Assembly: GCA_009835395.1 (NCBI GenBank)
Contig: VXXM01000068.1
Span: forward strand, 1,494-65,493
DNA from: Acidimicrobiia bacterium
Lineage (GTDB): Bacteria > Actinomycetota > Acidimicrobiia > Acidimicrobiales > CATQHL01
Reading direction: 5' to 3'
Length of the DNA stretch: 64,000 nt
In this document: positions 8,549 to 22,689 of the stretch, piece by piece
Position numbering within the stretch: the first letter of the stretch is position 1
How the letters are laid out: every line of letters begins with the position of its first letter
The notes under the pieces: model-generated
The model's input: the letters and a program-made list of their open reading frames with translations, nothing else
Databases searched by the model: none
Told to the model about the DNA's origin: nothing
Program-made: the position numbers and the translations under genes

Positions 8549-9361
8549 CTACTCGCCGGTGTAGTTGGGCTTTCGTTTTTGGACGAAGGCTTCGACGCCC
8601 TCGCGGAAGTCGGCTGTGGTGCGGAGGAAGCCGTAGGCGAGGCCCTCCAACTCGAGGCCCACGGGCAGCGGGCCGTCGTAGGCCTGGTTGAGGACCCGCT
8701 TCGCCATTCGGAGCGCCAGGGTGGGGAGTTTCGTGAGTTCGGCCACCAGGCGGTCGGTGGCCGTGTCGAGTTCGGCCCGGGGGACGACCTCGGACACCAG
8801 GCCGACGGCCATCGCCTCGTCCGCCGGCATGCGCCGGCCGCGCATCACCAGGTCCTTGGCTCGGCCCAGGCCGATCATGCGGGCCAGGCGCTGCGAGCCG
8901 CCGCTGCCGGGGATCATGCCGATGGACACCTCGGGCTGGCCGAGTTGCAGGTCGTCGGCGGCGATGCGGAAGTCGCAGGCGAGGGCGAGTTCCAGACCCA
9001 CGCCGAAGGTGAAGCCGTGCAGCTTGGCGATCACCGGCTTCGGGCAGCGCTCGGGGGCGGCCACGTTGTGGTGCAGGCGGGTGAGCACCTCCGGTGAGGC
9101 CTCCAGGAAGCCGGCGATGTCGCCGCCGGCGGTGAAGGCCCGCTCCCCCGCCCCGGCCAGCACGACCACGCGCACATCCGGGTCGCGGCCGCATGCCTCG
9201 AAAAGCGCCGAGAGGTGCTCGCGGGCCAGCATCGAGACGCGGTTCAGCTTGCCCGGCACGTCCAGGGTGATGGTGGCTGTGCCCCGCTCGGGATCGCGCT
9301 CGAAGCGCAGGCCGTCCAAGTCCTCGGGGTAGCTCACCGGTTCGGGATCTGTCGCAGGCAC
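8549..9361 (-). CDS. Enoyl-CoA hydratase/isomerase (crotonase) family protein, in the HmfE-like position
   Basis: Crotonase fold motifs are present (VVVLAGAGERAFTAGGDI..., GFTFGVGLELALACDFRIAA, GMIPGSGGSQRL). The GTG at 9361 sits 6 nt after GAAGGAG. Confidence 0.88.
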   Translation of the reverse strand: MPATDPEPVSYPEDLDGLRFERDPERGTATITLDVPGKLNRVSMLAREHLSALFEACGRDPDVRVVVLAGAGERAFTAGGDIAGFLEASPEVLTRLHHNVAAPERCPKPVIAKLHGFTFGVGLELALACDFRIAADDLQLGQPEVSIGMIPGSGGSQRLARMIGLGRAKDLVMRGRRMPADEAMAVGLVSEVVPRAELDTATDRLVAELTKLPTLALRMAKRVLNQAYDGPLPVGLELEGLAYGFLRTTADFREGVEAFVQKRKPNYTGE

Positions 9362-9377
9362 GGATCGGCTCCTTCGG

Positions 9378-10976
9378 TCATCGTCGCAGTCCAGCATTCT
9401 GCTCGCGCAGGACGCGGCGCAGGATCTTGCCGGACGGGCTCTTCGGCAGGGCTTCAGGAAAGCGGTACCGGCGGGGGCGCTTGAAGCGGGCCAGGTCGGC
9501 GGACTCCAGGCAGTAGGCGTCGAGCCGGGCCACGGCGGCGTGCTCGCCGGCCTCGGCAAGCTCGTCGTCGAGCACCACGAAGGCGGTGACCGCCTGGCCC
9601 CAGCGGTCGTCGGGCAGGCCGACCACCGCCACCTCCCGCACGCCCGGTGCCCGCTCCAGCACGTCCTCCACCTCCAGAGGGTGGACGTTCTCGCCGCCGC
9701 TGATGATCATGTCGTCGATCCGGCCGACGATCCAGAGGTTGCCGTCGTCGTCGAGGCGGCCCAGGTCACCGGTGAAGTACCAGTCGCCGCGGATCGCCCT
9801 GGCGTCGGCGTCGGGGCGGTTCCAGTAGCCGGCGAAGGCCTCATCGGAGCCGAGATGGCAGATGATCTCGCCGGTCTCGCCCGGCGCCACCTCGTCGTCG
9901 GGCCCGGTACCGGGTTCGGGGCGCACCAGGCGCAGCCGGGCGTTGGTGGCCGGCCGGCCGGCGCAGCCGGGAGCGGCGCGCTGATCGAAGTCGACCGAGT
10001 AGGTGTAGATCTCGGTGGAGCCGTAGTGATTGATGAACACCTCGGGGGCGAAGACCGCGACGCAGCGCTCCACGAGAGCGCTGGTCATGGCAGCCCCGGC
10101 GTAGGCCAGCGAGTGCACGCTGGACACGTCGGCGCCCGCGAGGTCCGGCAAGTGGACCAGATCGTGGAACAGCGTCGGGGCCAGGTACAGAGATCCGATT
10201 CGCTCAGACTCGATGAGTTCCAGTGCCGCCGCCGCGTCCCAGTCGGGTTGGCAGACGAAGCAGCCGCCGACGATCTGCGCCGCCAAGACCGTGTGGATGC
10301 CCATGGTGTGGTACAGCGGCATCACGCCGAGCGTGCGCTCGCCGGGCCGGTAGCTCTGGTGTAGCGACTGCGACAGACCGCCGGCCCGCTCGGCGGCGTG
10401 ACTGCGGGGCACCCCCTTGGGCCGGCCGGTGGTGCCGGAGGTGTACAGGAAGATGGACGTCTCACGGTCGTCCAGATCCTCGGGCGCGCCGGGCGCCTCA
10501 CCGGCTGCCAGCAGGCTCTCGTACGGCTCGCAGGGTTGCGCCTCGCCCCCGGCGCAGAACCGTGCCGCCAGGTCGGCGGAGGATCCGGCGCCGGCGGTGC
10601 CGACCGCCACGAATCGATCCACCGCGTCCGTGCACGCCCGGGCGTGCTCGAGGCCGACGTCCTCGAAGGCCACGACTGTGGCGCCGGAGTCGGCGACGCA
10701 GTAGGCCACGTCAGCGGCCGCAACCCGCCACGACAGCGGCACCACGACAGCCCCGAGCCACTGGCAGGCCCAGTACAACTCGACGGCCTCCCGGCGATTC
10801 TTCAACACGAGGGCCATCCGGTCGCCGCGGCCGACGCCCAACGATGCGAGCCCGCCCGCGACCTTGGCGGCGACCCGCTGCAAGTCCCGGTAGTCCAGAC
10901 AGGAGTCCCCGTCCACGACGGCGTCGGCCTCGGGCGTGCGCTCGGCGGCGTACAGCAGCGAGAGGCCCAGGTTCAC
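9378..10976 (-). CDS. AMP-dependent acyl/aryl-CoA ligase, in the HmfD-like position
   Basis: Motifs LYTSGTTGRPKGV, ...YGSTE..., ...GDWYFTGDLGRLDDDGNLWIVGRIDDMIISGGENV... and ...PKSPSGKILRR. The GTG at 10976 overlaps the upstream stop (GTGA). Confidence 0.9.
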   Translation of the reverse strand: MNLGLSLLYAAERTPEADAVVDGDSCLDYRDLQRVAAKVAGGLASLGVGRGDRMALVLKNRREAVELYWACQWLGAVVVPLSWRVAAADVAYCVADSGATVVAFEDVGLEHARACTDAVDRFVAVGTAGAGSSADLAARFCAGGEAQPCEPYESLLAAGEAPGAPEDLDDRETSIFLYTSGTTGRPKGVPRSHAAERAGGLSQSLHQSYRPGERTLGVMPLYHTMGIHTVLAAQIVGGCFVCQPDWDAAAALELIESERIGSLYLAPTLFHDLVHLPDLAGADVSSVHSLAYAGAAMTSALVERCVAVFAPEVFINHYGSTEIYTYSVDFDQRAAPGCAGRPATNARLRLVRPEPGTGPDDEVAPGETGEIICHLGSDEAFAGYWNRPDADARAIRGDWYFTGDLGRLDDDGNLWIVGRIDDMIISGGENVHPLEVEDVLERAPGVREVAVVGLPDDRWGQAVTAFVVLDDELAEAGEHAAVARLDAYCLESADLARFKRPRRYRFPEALPKSPSGKILRRVLREQNAGLRR

Positions 10977-11464
10977 GACGTCACTTCGGGCGTAGTGCCG
11001 GTGCCGGCCACGGCCGCGATGGCGTCGATGATGGGGGCGTAGCCGGTGCAGCGGCAGAGGTGCCCCGAGAGCATCTCGGCGATCTCGCGGCGGGTCGGCG
11101 TCGGGTTGTGGGCCAGGAAGTCCAGCGCGGCCATCAGGATGCCGGGCGTGCAGAAGCCGCATTGCAGGGCGAAGTGCTCCCGGAAGGCCTCCTGCAGCGG
11201 GTGCAGCCGGTCACCGGAGGCCAGGCCCTCCACGGTGCGCAGCTCGGTGCCGTCGGCCTGGGCGGCCAGCAGCAGGCACGAGCGCACGGCCGCGCCCTCG
11301 AGGTGCACGGTGCAGGAGCCGCACACCCCGTGCTCGCAGCCCACGTGCGTGCCGGTGAGTCCGAGGCGCTGGCGCAGGAAGTCCGAGAGCAGCATCCGGT
11401 CGGATGCCGCCTCGCGGTAGCGCCGGCCGTTGACGGTGACGGCGATCTCGCGGTGGTCGCTCAC
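10973..11464 (-). CDS. (2Fe-2S)-binding small subunit of a xanthine-dehydrogenase-family Mo-hydroxylase
   Basis: Two [2Fe-2S] cysteine motifs are present: GCEHGVCGSCTV and CGFCTPG...CRCTGY. The GTG start overlaps the upstream stop (GTGA). Confidence 0.93.
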   Translation of the reverse strand: MSDHREIAVTVNGRRYREAASDRMLLSDFLRQRLGLTGTHVGCEHGVCGSCTVHLEGAAVRSCLLLAAQADGTELRTVEGLASGDRLHPLQEAFREHFALQCGFCTPGILMAALDFLAHNPTPTRREIAEMLSGHLCRCTGYAPIIDAIAAVAGTGTTPEVTS

Positions 11465-12360
11465 GGGCCGCCCTCCCCCGCCCGGTCATCCGCGTCCAGC
11501 CAGCCCTGGCGGATCACCTGCTCGCTCAGCAGGCTCACGAGTTGCCGCCGGTAGGCCACCGAGGCGTGCAGATCCTCGAACGGCTGGGCCGCAGCGGCGG
11601 CCAGACTCGCCGCCTCACGCACCGCCTCATCGCCGGCAGCCCCGTCCAGGCTCTGACCCACCAGGACGCCGGCAGCCTCGCCGGCCAGCAGCGGCCGATC
11701 GGCCACCGCCCCCAGACCCAGCCGCACCTCGGCAACCACCCCGTCTCGGCGCCGCAGCGCGCAGGCCGCCATGGCGAGCGCGTAGTCGCCGTGTCGCTGG
11801 GCCATCTCGGCGAAGCCGTAGCCCCAGCCCGGCGCCGCAGCCGGCCAGCGAACGTCGGTGAGCAACTCGTCGGGTTCCAGGGCCGACGTGAAGTGGTACA
11901 GGAACAGATCCTCGGCGGCGATGCTGCGCCGACCACGCCGCGACTCCGCAAGCACCGAACCGCCCAGGGTGAGCAGCACCAGCGGCAGCTCGCCGCGGGC
12001 GTCGGCATGCGCCAGCGAGCCGCCGACCGTGCCCCGGTTGCGGGTCACGAAGTGCCCGATGTAGGGCGCGCAGGCGGCCGTCAGCGGCAGCGCCCCGCGC
12101 AGCTGCGGCGAACGCTCGAACGCCGACTGACGCAGCATGGCCCCGGTGGTCACATCGCCGTTGTCGGCGCGCACTTCGGCGAGGCCCCCGACGCGGTTCA
12201 CGTCGACGAGGACCTCGGGGCGCGCCAGGCGCATGTTCAGCATGGGGACGAGGCTGCAGCCGCCGGCCAGCACCTTGGCCTCATCGCCATGGGTGGCCAG
12301 CAGAGCCAGGGCCTCCTCCAGGCTGTCCGGGCGCACGTAACGGAACGGCGGCGGCTTCAC
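11461..12360 (-). CDS. FAD-binding medium subunit of the Mo-hydroxylase (CoxM/XdhB-like)
   Basis: N-terminus reads F.YVRPDSLEEALALLATHGDEAKVLAGGCSLVPMLNMR, with a ...GTVGGSLAHADA... FAD-binding fold. There is no extra Cys cluster. The GTG start overlaps the upstream stop. Confidence 0.9.
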   Translation of the reverse strand: MKPPPFRYVRPDSLEEALALLATHGDEAKVLAGGCSLVPMLNMRLARPEVLVDVNRVGGLAEVRADNGDVTTGAMLRQSAFERSPQLRGALPLTAACAPYIGHFVTRNRGTVGGSLAHADARGELPLVLLTLGGSVLAESRRGRRSIAAEDLFLYHFTSALEPDELLTDVRWPAAAPGWGYGFAEMAQRHGDYALAMAACALRRRDGVVAEVRLGLGAVADRPLLAGEAAGVLVGQSLDGAAGDEAVREAASLAAAAAQPFEDLHASVAYRRQLVSLLSEQVIRQGWLDADDRAGEGGP

Positions 12361-14762
12361 GAGCCTTCCCTCCCGCCGGCGCCGGCAAGGGCCTCCCAGA
12401 CTCGCGGTGCGGTCAGTGGAAGGTCGGGTCCGTCGAGGCCCAGAGCGTCGCAGACGGCGTTGGCCAGGGCGGCGGGGGCGCTCATGGTGTTGCCCTCCCC
12501 GAGGCCCTTGGCGCCGAGCGGCGTGAAGGGCGACGGTGTGCAGCGGTGCAGGATGCGCAGATCGGCCACCTCGGTCGAGGTGGCGCAGAGATAGTCCATG
12601 AAGCTGCCGGTCAGCAGGTTGCCGTCGTCGTCGTGGACGGTCTGCTCCAGCAGGGCCGGACCCAGGCCGTGGGCGAAGCTCCCCAGGATCTGGCCGTCCA
12701 CCAGGCGGGGGTGCAGCAGCGTGCCCGCGTCGTGCACCGTGACGTAGTCGAGGATCCGCACCTCACCGGTCGCGATGTCCACCTCCACCACCGCCACGTC
12801 GACCACGAACCCGTGCGCCGCCGAGGAGGCCACCTCGTCGGCGTCGTTGGGCGGGTCCAGGTTCGGGGCCGACACGAAGGCGGTCACCGCCAAGCCCGGC
12901 TCCAGCCCCGCCGGCAGCGACTCGGGATTCCAGTGCGCCGCCCCGGCGAGGCGGCGCAGCGAGACGCCGCGGTCGGGCTGGCCCACCACGCGGGCCTGCC
13001 CGTCGACGAGTTCCACGTCGGCCGGCGCGCACTCCAGGACGTCGCCCGCGATGCGGCGCAGCTTCCGCGCCAGTTGCGCCGCCGCCTCGGCGACGGCCGC
13101 GGCCCCGATCCCGGCGAAGCGGGAGGAGTAGTTCCCCGACGACACCGTCCAGGCGTTCACGTGGGTGTCCATCTCGCTCTGGACCTCCACGTCGGCGGGG
13201 CTGAGACCCAGGACGTCGGCGGCCACCTGGGCGGCCACGGTCCGGTGACCCTGCCCCTGCGGCACGGTGGAGAGCCGCACGGTCACCCCGCCGAGGGGGT
13301 TCATGGCCAGCGTGGCGCCCTCGGCATTGCCGGACTTCGGCCAGCCCCTGGCGCGCTCCTCCGCCGTCTCGGCGAGGGAGATGTAGCCCATGTTCGAGAT
13401 CGACGGCTCCACCACGCAGGCCAGCCCGATGCCCAGGCGCAGGCGGTCATCCCCGCCGGCGCGCCGCTCGGCTTGGCGTCGCCGCAGGCCCTCGTAGTCC
13501 ACGGCCTCGATCGCGTCGTCGAGGCAGGCGGCGTAGTCGCCGGAGTCGTACAGGCCACCTGTCGGCGTCCGGTACGGGAACGCCTCGGGCGGCACGAGGT
13601 TCCTGCGCGCCACCTCGACGGGGTCGAGACCCAGGCGGGCGGCGCCCCGCTCCATGATGCGCTCCAGTGCCAGGTACAGCTGCGGTCCGCCGAAGCCCCG
13701 GTTCAGCCCGGTCGGGCAGCGGTTGGTGTGGACGACCCGGTTGCGCACGGCCACGTTGTGCACGGCGTAGGCGCCGGTCAGCGAGCCGTGCATCCGGTAG
13801 AGGGTGGCCGGCTCGGGCGCCCGCAGGTAGGCCCCCACGTCCTCGATCACGTCGTAGCGCAGTGCCAGCAACTCGCCGTCGGCGGCGAAGGCGGCCTCCA
13901 CGTCGGTCACCCGGTGCGTGGCCGATCCGCTCGCAGCGAGATGCTCGACACGGTCCTCGATCCAGCGCACCGGCACACCGCAGATCTTCGAGGTGAGGCC
14001 GGCCAGGACGATGTAGCCGAACACGCCGGCCTTCACGCCGAAGCTCCCGCCGGAATCGGGCGGGGTGACGAGACGCAGCCGGGCGGCGGGCAGCCCCAGG
14101 GCTCCGGCCGCGACGGTGTGCAGGGTGAACGGCCCCTGGAAGTTGGCCCACACCGTGAGCGAGTCCGCGGCGTGGTCCCAATCGGCGATCACGCCGAAGC
14201 ACTCCACCGGGGCGGCGATCCAGCGACCGAACGGGAACCGGCCTCGAACCAGGGCGTGAGCGGCGGCGAACGCGGCCTCGGGGTCGCCGTAGCGGAACGA
14301 CCGATCCGACACCACCCGGCCCGCCTCGGCCGCCGCCAGTGGATCCACCAGCGCCTCGAGCGGCTCGTAGTCCACGTCCACCAGTTCCGCGGCGTCTTCT
14401 GCCAGGTAGCGGTCCCGCGCCACCACGACCGCCACCGGCTCGCCGGCGTAGCGGGCGACGTCTACGGCCACCGCGTGATGCTCGGTGGCGCCGCGGATCA
14501 CCGCTCCCAGGGGCCGGCCGGTCGCCGCCAGGTCGGCGCCTGTGAGCACCGCCAGGGTGCCCGGCGACGCCGCGGCGGCCGAGGTGTCGATGCCGCGGAT
14601 CCGCGCATGCGCGAACGGTGACCGCACCAGCGCCAGGTGCATCGCCCCCGGGACCGGCGAGAGATCGTCGATGAAGCGCCCCCGGCCCCGCAGCAGCGTC
14701 TCGTCCTCCACCCGGTGCGGGGTGGCGCCGATCCATCCGCCCGAGGCGCTCGCGCCGCTCAC
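12357..14762 (-). CDS. Molybdopterin-binding large subunit of a xanthine-dehydrogenase-family hydroxylase (801 aa)
   Basis: N-terminus reads RVEDETLLRGRGRFIDD.... The active-site loop is ...GLNRGFGGPQ..., which is XDH-like RGFGGPQ rather than the CODH AYXCSFR loop. The GTG at 14762 is preceded by GGAAGGG. Confidence 0.9.
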   Translation of the reverse strand: MSGASASGGWIGATPHRVEDETLLRGRGRFIDDLSPVPGAMHLALVRSPFAHARIRGIDTSAAAASPGTLAVLTGADLAATGRPLGAVIRGATEHHAVAVDVARYAGEPVAVVVARDRYLAEDAAELVDVDYEPLEALVDPLAAAEAGRVVSDRSFRYGDPEAAFAAAHALVRGRFPFGRWIAAPVECFGVIADWDHAADSLTVWANFQGPFTLHTVAAGALGLPAARLRLVTPPDSGGSFGVKAGVFGYIVLAGLTSKICGVPVRWIEDRVEHLAASGSATHRVTDVEAAFAADGELLALRYDVIEDVGAYLRAPEPATLYRMHGSLTGAYAVHNVAVRNRVVHTNRCPTGLNRGFGGPQLYLALERIMERGAARLGLDPVEVARRNLVPPEAFPYRTPTGGLYDSGDYAACLDDAIEAVDYEGLRRRQAERRAGGDDRLRLGIGLACVVEPSISNMGYISLAETAEERARGWPKSGNAEGATLAMNPLGGVTVRLSTVPQGQGHRTVAAQVAADVLGLSPADVEVQSEMDTHVNAWTVSSGNYSSRFAGIGAAAVAEAAAQLARKLRRIAGDVLECAPADVELVDGQARVVGQPDRGVSLRRLAGAAHWNPESLPAGLEPGLAVTAFVSAPNLDPPNDADEVASSAAHGFVVDVAVVEVDIATGEVRILDYVTVHDAGTLLHPRLVDGQILGSFAHGLGPALLEQTVHDDDGNLLTGSFMDYLCATSTEVADLRILHRCTPSPFTPLGAKGLGEGNTMSAPAALANAVCDALGLDGPDLPLTAPRVWEALAGAGGREGS

Positions 14763-14813
14763 GTCGCCCTTCCGGGGCCCGGGGTCCGCATCGCAGCTGT
14801 CACAGCGAGGTGC

Positions 14814-15989
14814 TCAGCCGTCCCCACCGGAGTCCAGAGCCTGCGCCACCAACTCCAGCGGGTGGCGCACGTCCAGACCGGCCGCCGCCAGGTGCAGGGA
14901 GCAACCGGGGTTGGCGCTGGCGACCACCGACGCCCCTGAACGTTCCACTGCCGCGGTCTTGCGGGCCCGGATGGCCATCGCCAGCTCGGGTTCCAGCATC
15001 GAGTAGGCGCCGCCGGCACCGCAGCAGAGGCCGTCGTCGTCGAGGGTCACCAGCTCCCGCACGAACGGCCCCAGCACCACCGGCACCGCCTCGTGGCTGC
15101 GCTGCGCATGGCGCAGGTGGCACGGGTCCTGCACGGCCACGGTCAACTCCAGCGGCGCGGCGGGGCGGCTGCCCAGCAGCACGTCGAGCCGGTCCGCCAG
15201 CCACTCGTGGACGTCGAACACGCGGGCCGCGAAGTCACGCGCCTCGGCAGTCCCCAGCAGGCGCCCGTAGTGCTTCATCGCCGCCCCGCAGCCCGCGGAG
15301 TCCACGAGCACGGGCCGGTCGTCAGCCGACAGGGCAGCCATGACCTGGCGGGCCATGGCGACGGCGTCGGGCTCCAAACCGGCGTGGGCGTGCAGCGCGC
15401 CGCAGCAGGGCGCCGCCCCGGCGGTGGGGGTCACGCCGACGCCAGCGGCTTCGAGGACCCGCTGGACGGCGAGATGGGTGTGACGCTGCCAGGCGTCCAT
15501 GACGCAGCCGGTGAAGAGCCAGACGTCGGACCCGGAGGCGCGGTGGCGGCCCCGGCGCAGCGGCAGGCGCGCCGGCAGGCCCAGCCGCCGGGCCGGCAGG
15601 AGGCCGAGCCGGCCGGCGAGCGCCAGCAGCGTGGAGCCGGCCAGCAGTAGGCGGCGGTGCCGCAGCAGCCTCAGCCCCAGACGCTGCCACCGCGGGGTGA
15701 TGCGCCTCTCGGCGGCCAGCGCGGCCCGGGTTCCCTCCATGAGGTGCCCGAAGGGCACACCGCTGGGGCAGGCCGTCTCGCAGCCGAGGCACTGCACGCA
15801 GGTCTCCATCGACCGCAGTACCTCGTGGGTGACCGGCGCCGCCTCGTCCTGCACCGCCCGCATTAGGGCGATGCGACCCCGCGGCGATTCGGTGTCGCGC
15901 CCGGTGATCACGAATGTCGGGCAGTGCGGCAGGCAGAGGCCGCACGCCACGCAGGAGTTGAGTTCGTCGTCGTCCAGACCGAGGTTCAT
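14814..15989 (-). CDS. glcF: Glycolate oxidase-type iron-sulfur subunit
   Basis: Two 4Fe-4S motifs (CVACGLCLPHCP and CVQCLGCETACP) plus CCG-domain-like C-terminal halves (...GCVMD..., ...CCGAGG...). The ATG at 15989 overlaps the upstream stop (TGATG). The 588-aa ORF is over-extended. Confidence 0.88.
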   Translation of the reverse strand: MNLGLDDDELNSCVACGLCLPHCPTFVITGRDTESPRGRIALMRAVQDEAAPVTHEVLRSMETCVQCLGCETACPSGVPFGHLMEGTRAALAAERRITPRWQRLGLRLLRHRRLLLAGSTLLALAGRLGLLPARRLGLPARLPLRRGRHRASGSDVWLFTGCVMDAWQRHTHLAVQRVLEAAGVGVTPTAGAAPCCGALHAHAGLEPDAVAMARQVMAALSADDRPVLVDSAGCGAAMKHYGRLLGTAEARDFAARVFDVHEWLADRLDVLLGSRPAAPLELTVAVQDPCHLRHAQRSHEAVPVVLGPFVRELVTLDDDGLCCGAGGAYSMLEPELAMAIRARKTAAVERSGASVVASANPGCSLHLAAAGLDVRHPLELVAQALDSGGDG

Positions 15990-16948
15990 CAGTTCCGCCG
16001 CAGCGGGTCGCGACCGGGGTTGAGGCGGCCGGTCGGATCGAAACGTTCCTTCATGCGCCGGTTCAGCTCGGCGACGCCCGGTGCCACAGGTCGGTGCGGT
16101 TGCGGCTCCGAGGCGTGCACCACACCGACTCCGATCTCGGCCACGAAGTCGATGCCAGCGGTGGCACCGTTCGGCGCCGCGCCGTTGCCGCTGCCGAAGG
16201 CGGCTGCCTCGGCCGGGGTGCACGACCAGCGGTGCGGCGGCAGCGCGGGTGGTCCCTCGACATCGGCCACCTCGCCGAGCTCGCCGAGAATCGCCCGGTC
16301 GGCGGCCGTGTCCGCGGCGTAGCCGCTCAGCAGCACCCAGGTCGCGCCGCCGTCCCAGAGGATCGAGTTGGCGGTGCGGCAGCGCTGCCACACCTGGCGG
16401 GGATCCACCGCCTCGAGGCGGAACCAAGCCTCCGACTCGGGGATCGGAACGGTGCGCAGCAGCGCCTCCCCGAGCAGGCCGAGGGTGCCGAGCGAGCCCA
16501 CGAGCAGCCGGCACAGGTCGAAGCCGCTGACGTTCTTCACCGTGCCGGCGCCGCCGGTGGCCACCCGCCCGTCGGCGCACACGTAGCGGGCCTGCAGCAG
16601 GGCGTCGCGCACGGGCCCGAGCCCCAGCCGGGTGATCGCCGACTCGCCGACCATCAATGCCCCGCCCACGGTGCCGCCCGGCCGCTCCGGCAGGGCGGTG
16701 CGCTGGCCCGAGGCAGCCAGGGCCTCGTGGAGTTCCGCCACGGTGGTGCCGGCGCGCACCCGCACCGTCATCTCGGCCGGCTCGAACGCCACAACGCCCG
16801 CCGGCGCGCGCAACTCCCGCGTGCCGGGCGCCACCTCGCCGCCGACGTGCCGACGGGTACCGCCGCCGCGCACGCCCACCGGCCCCTCCGGACCGACCTC
16901 GGTGGCGAAGTCGGTCAGCACCGGGTCGATCGTGCCCACGGTCGTCAT
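15989..16948 (-). CDS. glcE: Glycolate oxidase-type FAD-binding subunit
   Basis: FAD_binding_4-like fold (...FEPAEMTVRVRAGTTVAELHEAL...GGTVGGAL...VKNVSGFDLCRLLVGSLGTLG...) located between glcD and glcF. Confidence 0.8.
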   Translation of the reverse strand: MTTVGTIDPVLTDFATEVGPEGPVGVRGGGTRRHVGGEVAPGTRELRAPAGVVAFEPAEMTVRVRAGTTVAELHEALAASGQRTALPERPGGTVGGALMVGESAITRLGLGPVRDALLQARYVCADGRVATGGAGTVKNVSGFDLCRLLVGSLGTLGLLGEALLRTVPIPESEAWFRLEAVDPRQVWQRCRTANSILWDGGATWVLLSGYAADTAADRAILGELGEVADVEGPPALPPHRWSCTPAEAAAFGSGNGAAPNGATAGIDFVAEIGVGVVHASEPQPHRPVAPGVAELNRRMKERFDPTGRLNPGRDPLRRN

Positions 16949-16964
16949 CGCTGCCGCACCTCGC

Positions 16965-18470
16965 TCAGCCCCAGATCTTCCCGTCGGCGGCCCGCAGCAA
17001 GCCGATGTCGGCGCAGCTGTGAGCGCTGGGCAGCACCTTGCCGGGGTTCAGCCGGCAGTGCGGGTCGAATGCGGCCCGCAGCCGGCTCTGCTGGTCGAGA
17101 TCGGCGTCGCTGAACATGCGCTCCATGTAGTCGCGCTTCTCCACGCCGATGCCGTGCTCGCCCGAGAGGGCCCCACCCACCGCCAGCGAGGCCTCGATGA
17201 TCTCCCGGCCGGCGGCGTGCACGCGCTCCATGGTGCCGGGGACGCGGGCATCGAAGGCCAGGATGGGATGCAGGTTGCCGTCGCCGGCGTGGAACACGTT
17301 GAGCGCGGTCAGTTCGTATCGGTCGGCGATCTCGTAGACCTGCTCGAGCACCTCCACCAGGCGGCTGCGCGGCACCACGGTGTCATGCAGGTAGTAGTCG
17401 GGAAGGATGTTGGCGACCGCCCCGAAGGCGCTCTTGCGGCCCTTCCAGAGCCGCGCCCGCTCGGCGTCGTCGGCGGCGACCCGCACGCTCACAGCCCCGT
17501 TGGCGGTGGCGATCCTTGCCACCCGCTCGGCAGAGGCGGCCACCCCGCCGGGGGGACCGTCCACCTCCACGAGCAACACCGCGGCTGCGTCACGCGGGTA
17601 GCCGGCCTTGGCGAAGTCCTCGATGGCGCTGATGCAGCGCCGGTCCAACATCTCCAGGGCGGCCGGCACGATGCCGTCGGCGATGATCGCACCAACCGTG
17701 GCCGCGCCCGACGACACGTCGTTGTAGGCCATGAGCATCGTGCTCACGGCCGCCGGGTTGGGGGTGAGACGCACGGCCGCGCCCGTGGCGATGCCGCACA
17801 TCCCCTCCGAGCCGACGAACGCCCCGCGCAGGTCGTAGCCGGCGGGCTCGGCGTCGAGTCCGCCGAGGGTCACGACGGAGGCGTCCGACAGCACCACCTC
17901 CAGCGCCACCACGTGGGCGCTGGTCACGCCGTAGGCCAGGCAGTGCGGCCCGCCGGAGTTGGTGGCCACGTTTCCGCCGATCGTGCAGGCCTGCTGGCTC
18001 GACGGATCCGGCGCGTAGTGCATCCCGTAGGGCGCCAGCCGCCGCGACAGCTCCAGGTTCACCATGCCGGGCTGCACCCACGCCACGCCGTTGTCGAGGT
18101 CCACCGACAGCAGCTCGTTCATGCGGGTGAGCGACAGCACCACGGGCCGGCCCAGGGGCGCGGCGCCGCCCGAGAGTCCCGTGCCCGCCCCTCGTGGCAC
18201 CACGGCGCGGCCGTGGTCGGCCGCGATCCGCACGCAGGCGCTGACCTGTTCGGTGGTGACGGGGAAGCACAGCGGCCCAGCAGTGCCCTCGCTGTAGATG
18301 GAGGCGTCGCGGGAGGCGAGGTAGCGGGCGGCGGCGTCGGCCCGCACCCGCTCGGCGCCGACGGCCGCACGCAACTCGGCGACGAGGGCGGCGTCGGCCT
18401 CCCCTTCAGGCTCGGGTCGGTGCGCCCGGCGCCCCAGGCGGCGCGCCGCGGCGGCGAGCAGCGGCGACAT
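16965..18470 (-). CDS. glcD: FAD-linked oxidase, glycolate oxidase / D-2-hydroxyacid dehydrogenase subunit
   Basis: Motifs ...VVPRGAGTGLSGGAAP..., ...HYAPDPSSQQACTIGGNVATNSGGPHCLAYGVT... and a C-terminal ...GEHGIGVEKRDYM.... The ATG overlaps the upstream stop (TGATG). Confidence 0.9.
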   Translation of the reverse strand: MSPLLAAAARRLGRRAHRPEPEGEADAALVAELRAAVGAERVRADAAARYLASRDASIYSEGTAGPLCFPVTTEQVSACVRIAADHGRAVVPRGAGTGLSGGAAPLGRPVVLSLTRMNELLSVDLDNGVAWVQPGMVNLELSRRLAPYGMHYAPDPSSQQACTIGGNVATNSGGPHCLAYGVTSAHVVALEVVLSDASVVTLGGLDAEPAGYDLRGAFVGSEGMCGIATGAAVRLTPNPAAVSTMLMAYNDVSSGAATVGAIIADGIVPAALEMLDRRCISAIEDFAKAGYPRDAAAVLLVEVDGPPGGVAASAERVARIATANGAVSVRVAADDAERARLWKGRKSAFGAVANILPDYYLHDTVVPRSRLVEVLEQVYEIADRYELTALNVFHAGDGNLHPILAFDARVPGTMERVHAAGREIIEASLAVGGALSGEHGIGVEKRDYMERMFSDADLDQQSRLRAAFDPHCRLNPGKVLPSAHSCADIGLLRAADGKIWG

Positions 18471-18790
18471 CAGGGGTCCGTGGACTTGACGGCCGCCCGC
18501 TGGATCAGATCCTCGCTGGGTCCGTCAGAGGTGCACAGCGCCCGGAAGGCCTCCAACACCAGCATCGGGGAGTTGCGGTGGCGCTTGGCGGCGACGGCCA
18601 GCGGCTCGTGGAACGCCCCGCTGCAGTGGGCGCACGGCCAATTGAGGCGTGACATCAGCCTGGCCGCCTCACCGCCGGGGAACATGCGCAGGACCTCCAC
18701 GACGGTGGTCCTGCCCTTGATCTCCCGGGCGTCTGTGGGCGGCTCAGCGGGCCCAGCCGTCCCGCGCCCGCTGATGCCGCGCACCGTCAC
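18470..18790 (-). CDS. DUF1858 / redox-disulfide-like small protein with a CxxC motif (CAHC)
   Basis: C-terminal sequence ...TTVVEVLRMFPGGEAARLMSRLNWPCAHCSGAFHEPLAVAAKRHRNSPMLVLEAFRAL.... It is translationally coupled to glcD. The start is uncertain: GTG at 18790 or 18784, or the internal ATG of MFPGG. Confidence 0.55.
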   Translation of the reverse strand: MTVRGISGRGTAGPAEPPTDAREIKGRTTVVEVLRMFPGGEAARLMSRLNWPCAHCSGAFHEPLAVAAKRHRNSPMLVLEAFRALCTSDGPSEDLIQRAAVKSTDP

Positions 18791-18807
18791 CGATGCGCTC
18801 GGAGGAT

Positions 18808-20223
18808 TCAGAGGCGCACCTGCTCGAGCACCCGCACGTCCTCGGAATGCATGCGGATGGCGTTGCGTGGCAGCTGGTAGCGGGCGAACGGCAGCACGAT
18901 CACCTTGGCGTCGGGGCCGTGGCGCTCCATGGCCGCGCCGAAGGCCTCGTCGAGGCTGGTTGTGGCGTCGAGGCCGATGTCGGCAGCCATCTCCAGGTTC
19001 TCCTCCAGGGTGACCATCGTGAGGTGCTTGCGGGTCATCACCTCGTAGATGGGCACCCATATGCAGCCGGCCCACATCTGGATGTTGCGGCCGTGGATGT
19101 CGCGCAGCACCTTCTGGTAGTTCTCCGGCGAGGCCGGCATGTAGGGCTTCATGAGGTCCATCAGCGCCAGGCCGGGGAAGTCGCCGATCGCCGTGGACAC
19201 CCCCGGTGAGGGCGAGCAGTAGATGATCGTGCCGCCCTCGCGCACCACCAGGTCCGAGGACATGCAGCCCCAGCCGGTGTGGAAGAACAGGTGGTCGGTG
19301 GGGGCGAACACGCCGCAGACGGCGATGTCGGCCGGACCGGCCTCGGCCACCGGATTGTCGTAGGCGTAGATGGCGTTGAACCGGTTGATGGCCTCGATGT
19401 GCGCGTCGGGGTGCGCGCCGTAGATGCAGTCGATGACGCGGCCGCGGGTGTCCAGCAGCACGTTCATGGTGGCCGAGAGGCCGCACATCGTGGCGGTCTC
19501 GTCGATGTCGGCCCGCATGGGCCCGGCGTAGGCCCCGTAGTGGGTCTGCGGCGACGGCACGAAGGCGCAGTGGTTGGACTCGACGGTCTCGTCGGACACC
19601 ACGCCCGGCAGGATCAGCTTGCCGCCGCCGCCGGCACCCCAGTGGTTGGCCTGCGCGTGGCCGATGGTGAAGATGACCTCCGAGCGGGCCACCTCGTTGT
19701 GCAGCCACACGGGAGTGCCCCGGGAGGTGACGCCCACGAAGCTGTAGTTGTCGGCGTTGCGAGGCTCGTTCTGGAAGAAGCCGATGCCCATGCGCTCCAT
19801 GCGGGCCAGGTTCTCGTCGCCCAGCTTCTGGGAGATGTCGCTGTCGGACATCGGGAAGACCTTGCCGTTGGCACACACCACCCGGGCGTCGGTGATCCCC
19901 GCGGCCTCGATGGCGTCGAACACCGGCGGCAGCAGCTTGGAGGCCGGCGTCGGCCGGAACTGGTTGTCGATGACCACCGCCACGCTGGAGGCACCGGCCA
20001 GGAGTTCGCTGAACCGCGGCCCGCTGTGCGGGCTCTCCAGGGCCGCCCGGGCGGCCTCGGTGGCGTTGGGCACCGGATCCGGCTCGTCCGGGTAGATGGC
20101 CGCCAGCAGGTTCTCGTCGGAGATCTCCAACTCGAGAGTCTCCCGGTACACCTTGGTCTCGTCGTCGGCGGCGCCGATCGTCAACGGATCAAGGGACTCG
20201 TACGGAATCGAGTATCTGCCCAT
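18808..20223 (-). CDS. LarA-like (DUF2088) nickel-pincer-dependent 2-hydroxyacid racemase/epimerase homolog (471 aa)
   Basis: Core motif ...TIGHAQANHWGAGGGGKLILPGVVSDETVESNHC..., with Lys and His 16 residues apart as in the LarA cofactor-binding Lys/His pair (recalled from memory). The ATG at 20223 is preceded by GGGAGGAA. Confidence 0.75.
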   Translation of the reverse strand: MGRYSIPYESLDPLTIGAADDETKVYRETLELEISDENLLAAIYPDEPDPVPNATEAARAALESPHSGPRFSELLAGASSVAVVIDNQFRPTPASKLLPPVFDAIEAAGITDARVVCANGKVFPMSDSDISQKLGDENLARMERMGIGFFQNEPRNADNYSFVGVTSRGTPVWLHNEVARSEVIFTIGHAQANHWGAGGGGKLILPGVVSDETVESNHCAFVPSPQTHYGAYAGPMRADIDETATMCGLSATMNVLLDTRGRVIDCIYGAHPDAHIEAINRFNAIYAYDNPVAEAGPADIAVCGVFAPTDHLFFHTGWGCMSSDLVVREGGTIIYCSPSPGVSTAIGDFPGLALMDLMKPYMPASPENYQKVLRDIHGRNIQMWAGCIWVPIYEVMTRKHLTMVTLEENLEMAADIGLDATTSLDEAFGAAMERHGPDAKVIVLPFARYQLPRNAIRMHSEDVRVLEQVRL

Positions 20224-20332
20224 CGTTCCTCCCGGTCTTCGAGGAGTCGTGCCGAATCCGGCCCCGAGCATAGTTCGCCGTCCCGGGCGGTCTCCGCTGC
20301 TCAGCGGCGCCAAGCGGGTGCCGGCGGCGGGA

Positions 20333-21292
20333 CTATGGGGGCGGCAGAGGGCGGCCGTCGGCGATTGCGGCGCGGAACCAGTCGGCGGTCTCCGCCACGC
20401 CCTCGGCGAGGGGCGTGCGCGGAACCGAGCCCAGGCGTGCCTCGAGCGCGCTGTCGTCGAGCCCGCGGGGGAAGGGCAGCTGATCGGTTCCGTGGGTGAT
20501 CCCCGCGAAGTCGGTGGTCCCGATGATGGCCTCGACGAAGGAGGCGACCGGGGCCAAGCTGCCGTGGATGTTGTAGACGTCGCAGCCGCCCGGCTCGGCC
20601 CGCGCTGCGCCGATCACGATGCGCGCCACGTCGGAGGCGTACTGGAAGTCCATCCACCCGCCGTAGTCGATGTGGTAGGGCAGGCCCCGCACGGCGGCCA
20701 GCAGCGCCTGGCACGGGTAGGACGTGACGCCCTGGTCGCGGCCCGGTCCGTACACGGTGTGCGGGCGCAGGCCCACGCTGGGGGTGCCGTTCTCCTCCCA
20801 GTACACCCTGGCGGTGTCCTCGTTGGCCACCTTGTAGACGCCATAGTGCGTGGCCGGGTGGCGCTGGGCGTCGTTGGGCAGGGCGTCGGCGTCGTACAGG
20901 TCCGGATGGCCGAATACGGCCACGCTGCTGGTGTAGACGAGATTGTCGATTCCGTGCGCCTGAGCCGCCTCGAAGACGTTGGCGGTGCCGGCCACGTTGA
21001 TGGCGGCGCCCAGGGGCGGGTTGGCCCGGCAGGTCGGCACCTGCAGGGCCCCCAGGTGGATGATGTGGGTTGCACCCGCGGCGGCGGCCAGCACCTGATC
21101 GGTCACCGTGAGGTCGCCCTGGATGCGCCGGGGACCGGCCAGGTCGGCCTCATCGACGATGAGCCGCAGCCGCTTGTCGTCGGTGCTGATGTCGAAGAGC
21201 GTCATCTCGGCGCCCTCGTGGGACAGGTGGCGCACGACCCAGGCGCCGATGCAGCCCATGGCGCCCGTGATGAGGAAATGTTCTTCACTCAC
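20333..21292 (-). CDS. NAD-dependent epimerase/dehydratase (extended SDR)
   Basis: Rossmann motif ITGAMGCIGAWV and catalytic YGVYK. The GTG start lies 7 nt after GGAGG. Confidence 0.88.
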   Translation of the reverse strand: MSEEHFLITGAMGCIGAWVVRHLSHEGAEMTLFDISTDDKRLRLIVDEADLAGPRRIQGDLTVTDQVLAAAAGATHIIHLGALQVPTCRANPPLGAAINVAGTANVFEAAQAHGIDNLVYTSSVAVFGHPDLYDADALPNDAQRHPATHYGVYKVANEDTARVYWEENGTPSVGLRPHTVYGPGRDQGVTSYPCQALLAAVRGLPYHIDYGGWMDFQYASDVARIVIGAARAEPGGCDVYNIHGSLAPVASFVEAIIGTTDFAGITHGTDQLPFPRGLDDSALEARLGSVPRTPLAEGVAETADWFRAAIADGRPLPPP

Positions 21293-21362
21293 AGAAGCAC
21301 CTCCGTCTCAGAATTGTCCGTTCCGGCGACTCCAGTGGCGCGGCCTGCCCGCACCGCCGGGT

Positions 21363-22196
21363 CTAGACGCACCGGTTGGTGATCTCGCCGAGGCCCTCGA
21401 TGGTCGAGACGATCACGTCGCCGGGTGCCAGGTACTGCGGCGGATCCATACCGAATCCCACACCCGACGGCGTCCCGGTGAAGATGATGTCGCCGGGGAG
21501 CAGTTCGCAGATCGACGACAGGTAGGTGATCAGGCGCGGGACGTCGTTGATGAAGTACGTGGTGCGGGCGTCCTGCATCATGACGCCGTTGACCGAGCAG
21601 GTCAGGCCCAGATCCCATGGATTCTCCAGCTCGTCGAGGGTCACCACCGCCGGGCCGACCGGCGAGAAGTTGCGGTGCGACTTGCCCAGGTTGAACTGCG
21701 GGTACCCGCCGGCGAACTGGCCGATCCGCTCGCTCACGTCCTGCCCCACCGTGAACCCGGCGATGTGGTCGGCGATGTCGCCGGCCGCGATGTCCCGCCC
21801 GGCGCGCCCGATCACGACCACCAACTCCACTTCCCAGTCGCAGTTGCCGGGCACGAGCGGGACCTCGGCGTTCGGCGCGGCCATGCAGGACGGGAACTTG
21901 GTGAACACCAGCGGATCGTCGGGGACCTCCATCCCCGACTCGCCGGCGTGGTCGGCGTAGTTGAGACCGATGCCGAACACCTGCGGCGGGCGCGGCACCG
22001 GGCAGGTCAGGTCGTCGGCGCGGTAGGCCTCGCCGCCGGCGGGGGCGTTGTCGGCGGCCCACGCCAGGAATTCGTCCCACCTGCCCAGGACCTGCATCGG
22101 ATCGGGCCCGAAGGCACCTCCGGAGGCCTCGGCGATGTCCCAGGCCCGGTCGCCGGCCAGGCCCACTGCACGATGATCGATTGCTGCCATTCGCAT
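21363..22196 (-). CDS. Fumarylacetoacetate hydrolase (FAH) family protein
   Basis: Motifs ...QVFGIGLNYADHAGE...PLVFTKFPS...DWEVELVVVIG...GDIIFTGTPSGVG.... The start is the ATG at 22196 (or 22190). Confidence 0.88.
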   Translation of the reverse strand: MRMAAIDHRAVGLAGDRAWDIAEASGGAFGPDPMQVLGRWDEFLAWAADNAPAGGEAYRADDLTCPVPRPPQVFGIGLNYADHAGESGMEVPDDPLVFTKFPSCMAAPNAEVPLVPGNCDWEVELVVVIGRAGRDIAAGDIADHIAGFTVGQDVSERIGQFAGGYPQFNLGKSHRNFSPVGPAVVTLDELENPWDLGLTCSVNGVMMQDARTTYFINDVPRLITYLSSICELLPGDIIFTGTPSGVGFGMDPPQYLAPGDVIVSTIEGLGEITNRCV

Positions 22197-22198
22197 GG

Positions 22199-22486: not shown

Positions 22487-22689
22487 GGGGGCACCCTAGG
22501 GGGCGAGGTCGTCGGCGACTCCCGTATTGTTCCGACTTAGCGGATATTCACAGCTCCGCTGGGGAGATCAGGAGGACCGGGAGAGGACGCAACGAGCAGG
22601 CTGCGGGCACATCGTCGCCCGGCCGACCTCGCGGGTACAGCGGCGAACATTCGTTGAGTCCGGAGAACGAAGCCAGCAAGGAGCGTTGA

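What the first reader, a model, noticed from the sequence alone, without database searches (positions are those of the whole stretch)
14814..20223. LarA-like racemase, a CxxC DUF1858 protein and glcDEF fused into one translationally coupled unit
Seen in the sequence:
- A LarA (DUF2088) homolog lies at 18808-20223. It keeps the ...GGGGK-x15-H... Lys/His spacing that I recall for the nickel-pincer cofactor tether and Ni ligand of lactate racemase.
- After 17 nt comes a ~106-aa DUF1858-like protein with a CAHC motif.
- The stop of that protein overlaps the glcD start (TGATG).
- glcE and glcF are coupled the same way.

Established knowledge: LarA homologs racemize or epimerize diverse 2-hydroxyacids. 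GlcDEF-type enzymes oxidize D-configured 2-hydroxyacids (glycolate, D-lactate, D-2-hydroxyglutarate-type substrates).

Inference:
- This is a racemize-then-oxidize module that lets a stereospecific dehydrogenase consume both enantiomers.
- The small redox-disulfide protein may be a dedicated accessory factor.
- Because the module sits directly upstream of a cluster predicted to yield 2-oxoglutarate, 2-hydroxyglutarate is an attractive but unproven substrate.

No larB, larC or larE cofactor genes are present in this window.
Basis: partly seen in the sequence, partly recalled or inferred. Interest (0 to 1): 0.6.

Follow-up and report, generated by a model that had tools for sequence, protein, structure and literature searches.

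The report
Atypical nickel-pincer LarA with CxxC partner
The genes are arranged as described, but the LarA-type protein has lost every residue that lactate racemases use for catalysis, always travels with a small CxxC protein and normally heads a furoate-type degradation operon, so it probably performs an undescribed nickel-cofactor reaction, not a racemisation that feeds GlcDEF.

Summary
Observation: confirmed. LarA homolog (18808-20223, minus strand), 17 nt, a 106-aa DUF1858-fold CAHC protein, then glcD/E/F. The small/glcD and glcE/glcF junctions overlap by one base; glcD/glcE has a 16-nt spacer. larB, larC and larE lie elsewhere in the genome.

Interpretation: partly supported.
- The LarA homolog keeps the cofactor-binding residues: Arg90, tether Lys202, Ni-ligand His218.
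- The racemase catalytic and substrate residues are all replaced: D72→N87, H108→V122, H174→N193, Q295→H315, K298→W318.
- These replacements are invariant in 80/80 relatives.
- The protein sits in a well-supported clade that lacks both histidines.

Context in 59 related loci:
- The CxxC gene follows in 58.
- An hmfABCDE-like cluster (Mo hydroxylase, CoA ligase, crotonase; 44-59% identical to the Cupriavidus pinatubonensis furoate genes) follows in about 48.
- larBCE lie between in 25.
- glcDEF occurs only in 9, all from the closest Acidimicrobiales lineage.
- In 251 sampled Actinomycetota genomes, the LarA type and the CxxC protein occur in the same two genomes only.

Best reading (0.6): an NPN-dependent, non-racemase enzyme pair serving a furoyl-CoA-type pathway, with glcDEF, FAH and SDR as lineage-specific additions. 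The reaction itself is inferred, not shown.

The parts
21363..22166 (-). FAH-family (fumarylacetoacetate hydrolase fold) enzyme, first or second gene of the block
   Evidence: Pfam FAA_hydrolase E 3e-57. Best NCBIfam match is 2,4-didehydro-3-deoxy-L-rhamnonate hydrolase, 186 bits against a cut-off of 500. Recurs with the cluster in 12/59 loci, and downstream of hmfE in L100.
20333..21292 (-). Extended SDR (NAD-dependent epimerase/dehydratase family)
   Evidence: Pfam Epimerase E 5.5e-33. Upstream of the LarA homolog in Acidimicrobiia loci, downstream of hmfE in L100.
18808..20223 (-). LarA-superfamily protein, 471 aa. NPN-binding residues kept (R90, K202, H218). Racemase residues replaced (N87, V122, N193, H315, W318).
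18470..18790 (-). DUF1858-fold protein, 106 aa, with invariant C53-A-H-C56 and H71. Obligate partner of this LarA clade.
16965..18470 (-). GlcD-type FAD-linked 2-hydroxyacid dehydrogenase subunit. Its start overlaps the stop of the small gene.
   Evidence: 462 bits to PRK11230, cut-off 897.
15989..16948 (-). GlcE-type subunit, 16 nt after glcD
   Evidence: 129 bits, cut-off 284.
14814..15989 (-). GlcF-type Fe-S subunit (2x[4Fe-4S] plus two CCG domains). Its start overlaps the glcE stop.
   Evidence: 225 bits, cut-off 333.
12357..14762 (-). HmfA-like molybdopterin large subunit of an XDH/CoxL-family hydroxylase
   Evidence: Pfam. 53.7% identical over 791 aligned residues to the C. pinatubonensis hmfA homolog.
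11461..12360 (-). HmfB-like FAD subunit
   Evidence: 43.5% identity.
10973..11464 (-). HmfC-like 2x[2Fe-2S] subunit
   Evidence: 59.2% identity.
9378..10976 (-). HmfD-like AMP-forming CoA ligase
   Evidence: 47.0% identity.
8549..9397 (-). HmfE-like crotonase-family protein
   Evidence: 52.5% identity.

Best explanation
The 5.4-kb stretch is the middle of one 14-kb, single-strand catabolic block: FAH, SDR, LarA-like, CxxC protein, GlcDEF, HmfABCDE-like.

What the LarA-like protein is:
- It belongs to a very conserved clade of the LarA superfamily found in Acidimicrobiia and Thermoleophilia/Gaiellales.
- It still binds the nickel-pincer nucleotide (NPN). Arg90, tether Lys202 and Ni-ligand His218 are kept. 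larBCE are in the genome, and they are adjacent to the gene in many relatives.
- It has lost the two acid/base histidines and the carboxylate-binding Gln/Lys of the racemase mechanism.
- It works as an obligate pair with a DUF1858-fold CxxC protein.
- The pair's conserved task is tied to a furoyl-CoA-type pathway (CoA ligase, Mo hydroxylase, crotonase, ending in 2-oxoglutarate), not to GlcDEF.

Favoured mechanism (inferred, about 0.25 on its own):
- NPN takes a hydride from a hydroxylated carbon of a ring-opened or butenolide-derived C5 intermediate, such as a 2-hydroxy-enoyl species.
- It returns the hydride to another carbon, a redox-neutral isomerisation towards the 2-oxo product.
- Invariant His194, His315 or Lys121 would serve as the acid/base.
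- The CxxC protein would act as a thiol/disulfide partner, either as a redox sink or source or as protection of the cofactor in these aerobes.

In this sponge-type Acidimicrobiales lineage larBCE moved elsewhere. glcDEF, together with FAH and SDR, was recruited into the operon, plausibly to oxidise a 2-hydroxy-dicarboxylate side or intermediate product.

Shown: gene order, residue replacements, fold, co-occurrence, presence of the cofactor genes.
Inferred: NPN loading, the substrate, the reaction, and the roles of the CxxC protein and GlcDEF.
For: Residue mapping:
- Three pairwise HMMER alignments to solved LarAs (5HUQ, 9EIA, 6D6Z) and two MSAs agree.
- The map is D72→N87, R75=R90, H108→V122, H174→N193, K184=K202, H200=H218, Q295→H315, K298→W318.
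- The motifs DNQFR, ANGKVFP, Q(A/S)NHW, GGGGK, E(S/A)NH and FFHTGW are present in 80/80 family members.
- 231 of 471 positions are at least 97% identical across two classes.

Phylogeny:
- The window family plus four sister representatives (37-43% identical) form a clade with SH-aLRT 100 that lacks both histidines.
- All solved and characterised LarAs fall in a distant clade with the DRHHKHQK signature.
- No NCBIfam LarA equivalog cut-off is reached; the best is 183 bits against 500.

NPN dependence:
- larB, larC and larE all score over their cut-offs in the genome.
- larE-larC-larB lie between the CxxC gene and hmfA in 25/59 loci.

Pairing with the small protein:
- The small gene follows in 58/59 loci.
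- Both genes occur in the same 2 of 251 phylum-wide genomes.
- C53, C56 and H71 are invariant in 72 sequences.
- The fold is DUF1858.
- CxxU selenoprotein forms of DUF1858 are listed in PMC9312934; I read this as support for a redox role.

Pathway link:
- coxL 48, coxS 44 and coxM 41 of 59 loci; CoA ligase 32 and crotonase 18, both limited by the flank length.
- 54/44/59/47/53% identity and the same gene order as the C. pinatubonensis hmfABCDE-like cluster.
- That species grows on furoate using hmfABCDE alone (PMC8091172).
- In L100 an ADH and an ALDH precede the LarA gene, and FAH plus SDR follow hmfE.

glcDEF occurs in only 9/59 loci.

Literature:
- LarA homologs lacking a histidine are expected to do other hydride-mediated reactions (PMC7583248).
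- Single-His LarAHs show no lactate racemase activity (PMC12611868).
Against: - No activity, cofactor-loading or transcript data exist for any member.
- I could not inspect model coordinates. A compensating shift cannot be excluded: Lys121 lies one residue before the His108 position and His194 one residue after the His174 position. Such a shift could preserve a two-base racemase.
- The Trudgill furoate pathway as written needs no hydride-transfer step, and Proteobacteria run it without LarA.
- Three sampled Actinomycetota genomes carry an hmf-like cluster (order A-D-E-B-C) without the LarA/CxxC pair, so the pair is not essential to every such cluster.
- In this lineage the small gene is translationally coupled to glcD, which does suggest some local functional tie to GlcDEF.
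- Gene neighbourhood is only circumstantial evidence for a shared pathway.
Confidence: 0.6

Rival explanations
1. The LarA homolog is a true 2-hydroxyacid racemase or epimerase that uses substitute bases (Lys121, His194, His315). It converts the L-form of a 2-hydroxyacid (lactate, 2-hydroxyglutarate or a related dicarboxylate) to the D-form, which GlcDEF then oxidises. The CxxC protein is an accessory factor.
For: - The genes are contiguous, with the CxxC stop overlapping the glcD start.
- The arrangement is conserved in 9 of 59 long loci, all close relatives of the window.
- The NPN-binding residues and the larBCE genes are present.
- Basic residues lie next to both lost histidine positions.
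- GlcD/GlcF-type COGs are known neighbours of several LarAH groups (PMC7583248).
- The hmf pathway ends in 2-oxoglutarate, so 2-hydroxyglutarate is a conceivable side product.
Against: - Five of the residues that define the racemase active site are replaced, including the carboxylate-binding Lys298 (→Trp).
- glcDEF is absent from 50 of 59 loci that carry the same, nearly identical LarA/CxxC pair.
- The score to every characterised racemase model is far below its cut-off.
- This is the genome's only glcDEF set, so it may be a housekeeping enzyme.
Confidence: 0.18
2. The LarA-like/CxxC pair is not a metabolic enzyme of the pathway. It would be an accessory system for the Mo hydroxylase, acting as an electron or hydride acceptor for HmfABC or as a factor in maturation (sulfuration or insertion) of its molybdenum cofactor.
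For: - The pair lies immediately upstream of the Mo hydroxylase genes in most loci.
- In some Thermoleophilia it sits between MoxR/VWA genes (which I take to be CoxD/E-like) and the hydroxylase.
- Sister clades lacking both histidines sit next to tungsten/molybdenum AFOR-family enzymes.
- The physiological acceptor of furoyl-CoA dehydrogenase is unknown (PMC3223595).
Against: - Proteobacterial hmfABCDE works with an XdhC-type chaperone and no LarA.
- The window genome has no MoxR or VWA homologs of those genes.
- A covalently tethered hydride cofactor has no known role in Moco maturation.
- No precedent exists.
Confidence: 0.1
3. The pair acts upstream of CoA ligation as an NPN-dependent aldehyde or alcohol hydride transferase. 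It would carry out dismutation or thiohemiacetal oxidation of furfural-type aldehydes to supply the carboxylate substrate of the CoA ligase. The CxxC thiols would form the hemithioacetal or accept the reducing equivalents.
For: - Intermolecular hydride shuttling by an NPN enzyme is now documented, though in a different fold (PMC13524815).
- ADH and ALDH genes precede the LarA gene in L100.
- Sister clades lie next to aldehyde:ferredoxin oxidoreductases and an Fe-ADH.
Against: - Ordinary ADH and ALDH genes in the same loci would make such an enzyme redundant.
- There is no direct evidence.
- The sister-clade loci lack the CxxC partner.
Confidence: 0.08

Closest known systems
LarA-family NPN-dependent 2-hydroxyacid racemases/epimerases (LarA L. 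plantarum 5HUQ, LarA I. pallida 9EIA, Mar2 6D6Z)
   Same: - Same two-domain fold, TM 0.8-0.89.
- Same cofactor-binding Arg, tether Lys and Ni-ligand His with K-x15-H spacing.
- Depends on a genome that encodes LarB, LarC and LarE.
   Different: - 18-23% identity in the Foldseek structural alignments.
- D72, H108, H174, Q295 and K298 are all replaced by invariant N, V, N, H and W.
- Has an extra N-terminal insertion of 12-17 residues.
- Has an obligate CxxC partner.
- Its gene context is a CoA-dependent Mo-hydroxylase pathway, not a simple hydroxyacid pathway.
Single-histidine LarA homologs (LarA of Blautia wexlerae and Streptococcus plurextorum, 9Q3J/9Q2U/9Q3K; PMC12611868)
   Same: - LarA fold with His174 replaced by Asn.
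- NPN binding retained.
- Reaction unknown, and no lactate racemase activity.
   Different: - Those keep His108; this clade has lost it as well.
- Only distant similarity (E 1e-7, TM about 0.65-0.69).
- Different context: carbohydrate genes there, a furoyl-CoA-type cluster here.
- No CxxC partner is described for them.
HmfABCDE furoic acid (Trudgill) pathway of Cupriavidus basilensis/pinatubonensis
   Same: The downstream five genes have the same order and 44-59% identity to the C. pinatubonensis cluster.
   Different: Proteobacterial clusters carry a LysR regulator, an MFS transporter and XdhC, but no LarA, DUF1858, glcDEF, FAH or SDR. The substrate in Actinomycetota is untested.
DUF1858 / TIGR03980 'hybrid-cluster-protein-associated redox disulfide' domain (NMR structure 2K5E)
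   Same: Small helical fold with a CxxC motif at the same place.
   Different: Scores are below the curated cut-offs. It has its own invariant signature, PCAHCGGAFHEPL...KRH. It is linked to a LarA clade, not to hybrid cluster protein.
E. coli-type glycolate oxidase GlcDEF
   Same: Three subunits in the same order with the same domains. The best NCBIfam matches are GlcD, GlcE and GlcF.
   Different: All three score below the equivalog cut-offs. The genes are embedded in a catabolic operon and translationally coupled to a CxxC protein.

Membership tests
LarA superfamily (DUF2088 / Lar_N fold) | Lar_N domain above the Pfam gathering score, and the two-domain LarA fold | tested here: met
   Lar_N 107.3 bits against 23.3. 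LarA_C only 22.6 against 25. AF2 pLDDT 91.5; Foldseek E 1e-31 to 1e-33, TM 0.8-0.89 to 5HUQ, 9EIA and 2YJG.
NPN-dependent LarA-type racemase/epimerase | NPN-binding residues Arg75, Lys184 and His200 (PMC7583248) | tested here: met
   R90, K202 and H218, invariant in 80/80 relatives.
NPN-dependent LarA-type racemase/epimerase | First catalytic histidine (His108) | tested here: not met
   Aligned to Val122 in ANGKVFP, anchored by Gly at -2 and Pro at +2. Invariant in 80/80.
NPN-dependent LarA-type racemase/epimerase | Second catalytic histidine (His174) | tested here: not met
   Aligned to Asn193 in Q(A/S)NHW. His194 follows. A one-residue shift cannot be excluded without coordinates.
NPN-dependent LarA-type racemase/epimerase | Asp72 and substrate-carboxylate residues Gln295 and Lys298 | tested here: not met
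   N87 (with Asp86 adjacent), H315 and W318 in FFHTGW. Invariant in 80/80.
NPN-dependent LarA-type racemase/epimerase | Score above the cut-off of a curated equivalog model (LarA, MAR, LarAH10, LarAH14-16) | tested here: not met
   The best is NF052593, 183 bits against 500.
NPN-dependent LarA-type racemase/epimerase | larB, larC and larE present in the genome | tested here: met
   217, 208 and 286 bits, all over their cut-offs. Adjacent to the gene in 25/59 related loci.
NPN-dependent LarA-type racemase/epimerase | Racemase or epimerase activity on a 2-hydroxyacid | not testable with these tools
   Needs a biochemical assay.
DUF1858 (PF08984) / TIGR03980 redox-disulfide domain | Profile match at the curated cut-off | tested here: not met
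   The window protein has no Pfam hit. TIGR03980 scores 20.8 bits against 44.95. 14 of 23 family members hit DUF1858 at E up to 1, best 8e-5.
DUF1858 (PF08984) / TIGR03980 redox-disulfide domain | Fold and CxxC motif | tested here: met
   Best PDB match is 2K5E, probability 0.99, TM 0.71, rmsd 2.0 A. C53 and C56 are invariant in 72/72.
GlcDEF glycolate oxidase | Three subunits with FAD_binding_4/FAD-oxidase_C (D, E) and Fer4 plus 2x CCG (F) | tested here: met
GlcDEF glycolate oxidase | Equivalog-level score | tested here: not met
   GlcD 462 against 897 (456 against 568 for TIGR00387), GlcE 129 against 284, GlcF 225 against 333.
HmfABCDE furoyl-CoA pathway | Homologs of HmfA, HmfD and HmfE (at least 40% similarity) next to each other, in the order A-B-C-D-E (criterion of PMC3223595) | tested here: met
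   54/44/59/47/53% identity to the C. pinatubonensis cluster, same order.
HmfABCDE furoyl-CoA pathway | Growth on or turnover of 2-furoate | not testable with these tools
   The organism is an uncultured MAG.

The most novel reading that the evidence does not exclude
This LarA clade, together with its CxxC partner, catalyses an NPN reaction that is not a racemisation. It would be either an intramolecular hydride shift on a ring-opened furan intermediate or a thiol-coupled net redox step. That reaction would be a previously unrecognised enzymatic step of heteroaroyl-CoA (furoate-type) catabolism in aerobic Actinomycetota. In the sponge-associated lineage, the CCG-domain subunit GlcF may recycle the CxxC protein's disulfide.
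Probability: 0.3. Interest if true: 0.8.

Novelty: new variant of a known kind. Interest (0 to 1): 0.6.

Why it matters
- Nearly all NPN chemistry characterised so far is racemisation or epimerisation that uses two histidines. Intermolecular hydride shuttling was reported in 2026, in a different fold.
- This is a large LarA clade (more than 1000 protein hits at E ≤ 1e-10) under strong constraint. It keeps the cofactor site, has rebuilt the rest of the active site, and has acquired an obligate CxxC partner.
- That makes it a concrete, testable candidate for new nickel-pincer chemistry.
- It would also assign a role to a DUF1858 protein.
- It suggests that the textbook furoate pathway has an extra or alternative step in Gaiellales, Thermoleophilia and Acidimicrobiia, including sponge symbionts.
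- For annotation, these proteins should not be named lactate racemase.

Tried and rejected
- Terminator and promoter scan of 7900-22800: nothing found. This is weak evidence at 72% G+C.
- Rfam scan of 7500-23500 at E up to 1: no riboswitch or other RNA.
- Fusion proteins joining LarA and the CxxC domain: the few candidates (P0170, P0174, P0268) look like frameshifted fragments, not fusions.
- The 476-aa protein of unknown family next to sister-clade LarA P0125 was compared with the LarA profile: not significant, probability 5.6%.
- A CxxC partner in the sister-clade loci: none found within the available flanks.
- Complex prediction of LarA plus the small protein is not possible with the tools.
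- The careful tree did not finish in time, so the quick IQ-TREE tree (SH-aLRT only) is reported.
- I considered that the cluster might be a mandelate-type alpha-oxidation route (TPP decarboxylase plus aldehyde oxidoreductase). I dropped it because the Mo-enzyme, ligase and crotonase genes match hmfABCDE at 44-59% identity, and the TPP gene is present in only 6/59 loci.

Full report
**1. What is in the sequence**

The window is about 72% G+C. Its closest relatives are Acidimicrobiales MAGs; from bin names such as IRC4_bin and APA_bin I guess some are sponge-derived.

On the minus strand there is one uninterrupted block of genes:
- FAH-family hydrolase, 21363-22166
- extended SDR, 20333-21292
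- LarA homolog, 18808-20223
- a 106-aa CAHC protein, 18470-18790
- glcD 16965-18470, glcE 15989-16948, glcF 14814-15989
- a CoxL/M/S-type molybdenum hydroxylase, 12357-14762, 11461-12360 and 10973-11464
- an AMP-forming CoA ligase, 9378-10976
- a crotonase, 8549-9397

glcD and glcE are 16 nt apart. No terminator-like site and no Rfam element lies inside the block.

**2. The LarA homolog: cofactor site kept, racemase site gone**

Pfam Lar_N scores 107 bits. The AF2 model (pLDDT 91.5) superposes on lactate and malate racemases with TM 0.8-0.89.

No curated LarA equivalog is reached; the best is 183 bits against a cut-off of 500.

The literature defines R75, K184 and H200 as NPN-binding residues, and D72, H108, H174 and K298 as catalytic residues (PMC7583248). 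HMMER alignments to 5HUQ, 9EIA and 6D6Z and two multiple alignments give one consistent map:

| LarA L. plantarum | Window protein |
|---|---|
| R75 | R90 (kept) |
| K184 | K202 (kept) |
| H200 | H218 (kept) |
| D72 | N87 |
| H108 | V122 |
| H174 | N193 |
| Q295 | H315 |
| K298 | W318 |

The six motifs that carry these residues are identical in all 80 relatives from different species. Across the family, 231 of 471 positions are at least 97% conserved. This is a constrained, rebuilt active site, not a decaying one.

Caveat: Lys121 and His194 sit next to the two lost histidine positions. Without coordinates I cannot exclude that they take over.

**3. Phylogenetic position**

- A search of 1.8 billion representatives shows that the whole family collapses into one 50%-identity cluster. 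The next relatives are only 37-43% identical.
- In a quick ML tree, the family plus these four sisters form a clade with SH-aLRT 100 in which neither histidine is present.
- The next group out has His108 but Asn at position 174.
- All solved LarAs lie in a distant clade with the full signature.
- Published "single-histidine" LarAHs (PMC12611868) lack only His174 and are remote from this protein (E 1e-7).
- I found no paper in the searched library that links a LarA homolog to furoate metabolism.

**4. The cofactor genes**

larB and larC (adjacent, contig C25) and larE (C34) are present above their cut-offs. The genome has a second LarA homolog on C41. It is a bona fide LarAH14/15/16 member, 881 bits against 740, so larBCE alone do not prove use by the window protein. 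However, in 25 of 59 long related loci larE-larC-larB sit directly between the small gene and the hydroxylase genes. That ties the cofactor to this clade.

**5. The small protein**

- It matches TIGR03980 only weakly.
- 14 of 23 family members hit Pfam DUF1858.
- The AF2 model's only confident PDB match is the DUF1858 structure 2K5E.
- C53, C56, E62-P63-L64 and H71 are invariant in 72 sequences.
- CxxU selenoprotein forms of DUF1858 are catalogued (PMC9312934), which I read as support for a redox role.
- The small gene lies downstream of the LarA gene, directly or within a few kb, in 58 of 59 loci.
- In an even sample of 251 Actinomycetota genomes, the LarA type and the small protein are found in exactly the same two genomes.
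- The sister-clade loci lack it.

It is a dedicated partner of this LarA family.

**6. The conserved neighbourhood is not glcDEF**

Counts among 59 loci longer than 15 kb:

| Gene(s) | Loci |
|---|---|
| coxL | 48 |
| coxS | 44 |
| coxM | 41 |
| CoA ligase | 32 (flank-limited) |
| crotonase | 18 (flank-limited) |
| divergent branched-chain-type solute-binding protein | 30 |
| larBCE | 25 |
| FAH, SDR | 12 each |
| glcDEF | 9 |

- The nine glcDEF loci are the closest relatives of the window. In them glcDEF occupies the place where others carry larBCE.
- The five downstream genes are 54, 44, 59, 47 and 53% identical to a C. pinatubonensis cluster, and in the same order.
- That species carries only hmfABCDE and grows on 2-furoate (PMC8091172).
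- This meets the published heuristic for hmf clusters (PMC3223595).
- In locus L100 an alcohol dehydrogenase and an aldehyde dehydrogenase precede the LarA gene, and FAH plus SDR follow hmfE. FAH and SDR are therefore recurrent members of the same gene set.
- The sister clades without histidines sit next to tungsten/molybdenum AFOR enzymes.
- Not every actinobacterial hmf-like cluster has the pair. Three sampled genomes have an A-D-E-B-C version without it.

**7. What it most likely does**

Shown:
- an NPN-binding LarA fold without the racemase machinery
- an obligate CxxC partner
- a conserved link to larBCE and to a furoyl-CoA-type pathway

Inferred:
- The pair performs a hydride-transfer reaction other than racemisation on an intermediate of that pathway.
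- The Trudgill scheme leaves the tautomerisation and lactone-opening steps without assigned enzymes.
- A butenolide tautomer would open to a 2-hydroxy-enoyl species. Converting that species to the 2-oxo product is a redox-neutral hydride relocation.
- This is the kind of reaction Desguin et al. proposed for LarAHs that lack a histidine.
- I favour this, at about 0.25. The alternatives are a thiol-coupled net redox step, an aldehyde hydride transferase, or an accessory role for the Mo enzyme.
- In this lineage, GlcDEF (the genome's only set), FAH and SDR would process 2-hydroxy or 2-oxo dicarboxylate products.
- The start-stop overlap of the CxxC gene with glcD, and the CCG domains of GlcF, leave room for a local redox link. 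Nothing tests it.

**8. Verdict**

- The central idea, a racemase feeding GlcDEF, is not supported by the active-site residues or by comparative context.
- An earlier follow-up in this scan reached the same view of the clade in another genome. I reproduced its main claims independently here.
- The clade is a new variant within the LarA superfamily and a good target for experiment.

Noticed in passing
own genome, contig C41:88278-88871 (minus strand; outside the window): A second LarA homolog of about 538 aa. It is a full member of the LarAH14/15/16 'NPN-dependent hydroxyacid isomerase' family (881 bits, cut-off 740). It keeps His108 but has no His at the 174 position, so both LarA homologs of this genome are non-canonical.
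   Followed up: partly
own genome, contig C25:72040-76814: larB and larC lie next to a TPP-dependent enzyme gene. A TPP enzyme (only about 30% identical to this one) also accompanies the LarA/CxxC cluster in several Thermoleophilia loci (L087, L099, L100).
   Followed up: no
window 6276-8117 (+): A single ORF carries both an ETF (beta-type) domain and an ETF_alpha FAD-binding domain, which looks like a beta-alpha fused electron-transfer flavoprotein. It lies divergently next to the catabolic block.
   Followed up: no
L087:11773-12549 and L088:6671-7405: In two Thermoleophilia loci a heliorhodopsin gene is inserted between the CxxC gene and larE.
   Followed up: no
L109 (G145:C11:184000-203900) and L112: In this distant carrier (LarA 73% identical) the order is ligase-hmfA-crotonase-hmfB-hmfC-LarA, with LarA last. 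HmfC is fused to a C-terminal extension of about 230 aa. larBCE are divergent. The CxxC gene sits 18 kb away beside an ABC transporter.
   Followed up: partly
L106-L108 (genomes G167, G141, G180, one family): These have an hmf-like cluster in the order A-D-E-B-C, with no LarA-like or CxxC gene anywhere in the genome. All three contigs end at or within the 5' end of hmfA.
   Followed up: partly
L092/L093 and L094/L095 (sister-clade LarA homologs P0125, P0128): LarA homologs lacking both histidines lie next to aldehyde:ferredoxin oxidoreductase (AFOR) genes and ferredoxins. One locus also carries TRAP transporter genes, two QRPTase-like genes, FAH and DmpFG-type genes. Three of the four sister representatives (P0125, P0141, P0143) have also lost the tether Lys.
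   Followed up: partly
window 22199-22486 (-) and 8136-8474 (-): Two small ORFs flank the block: a 95-aa ORF with no family hit, conserved in 7 near relatives, and a 112-aa ORF with a DUF3467 domain. They have coding-like G+C at the third codon position. Whether they belong to the operon is unknown.
   Followed up: no
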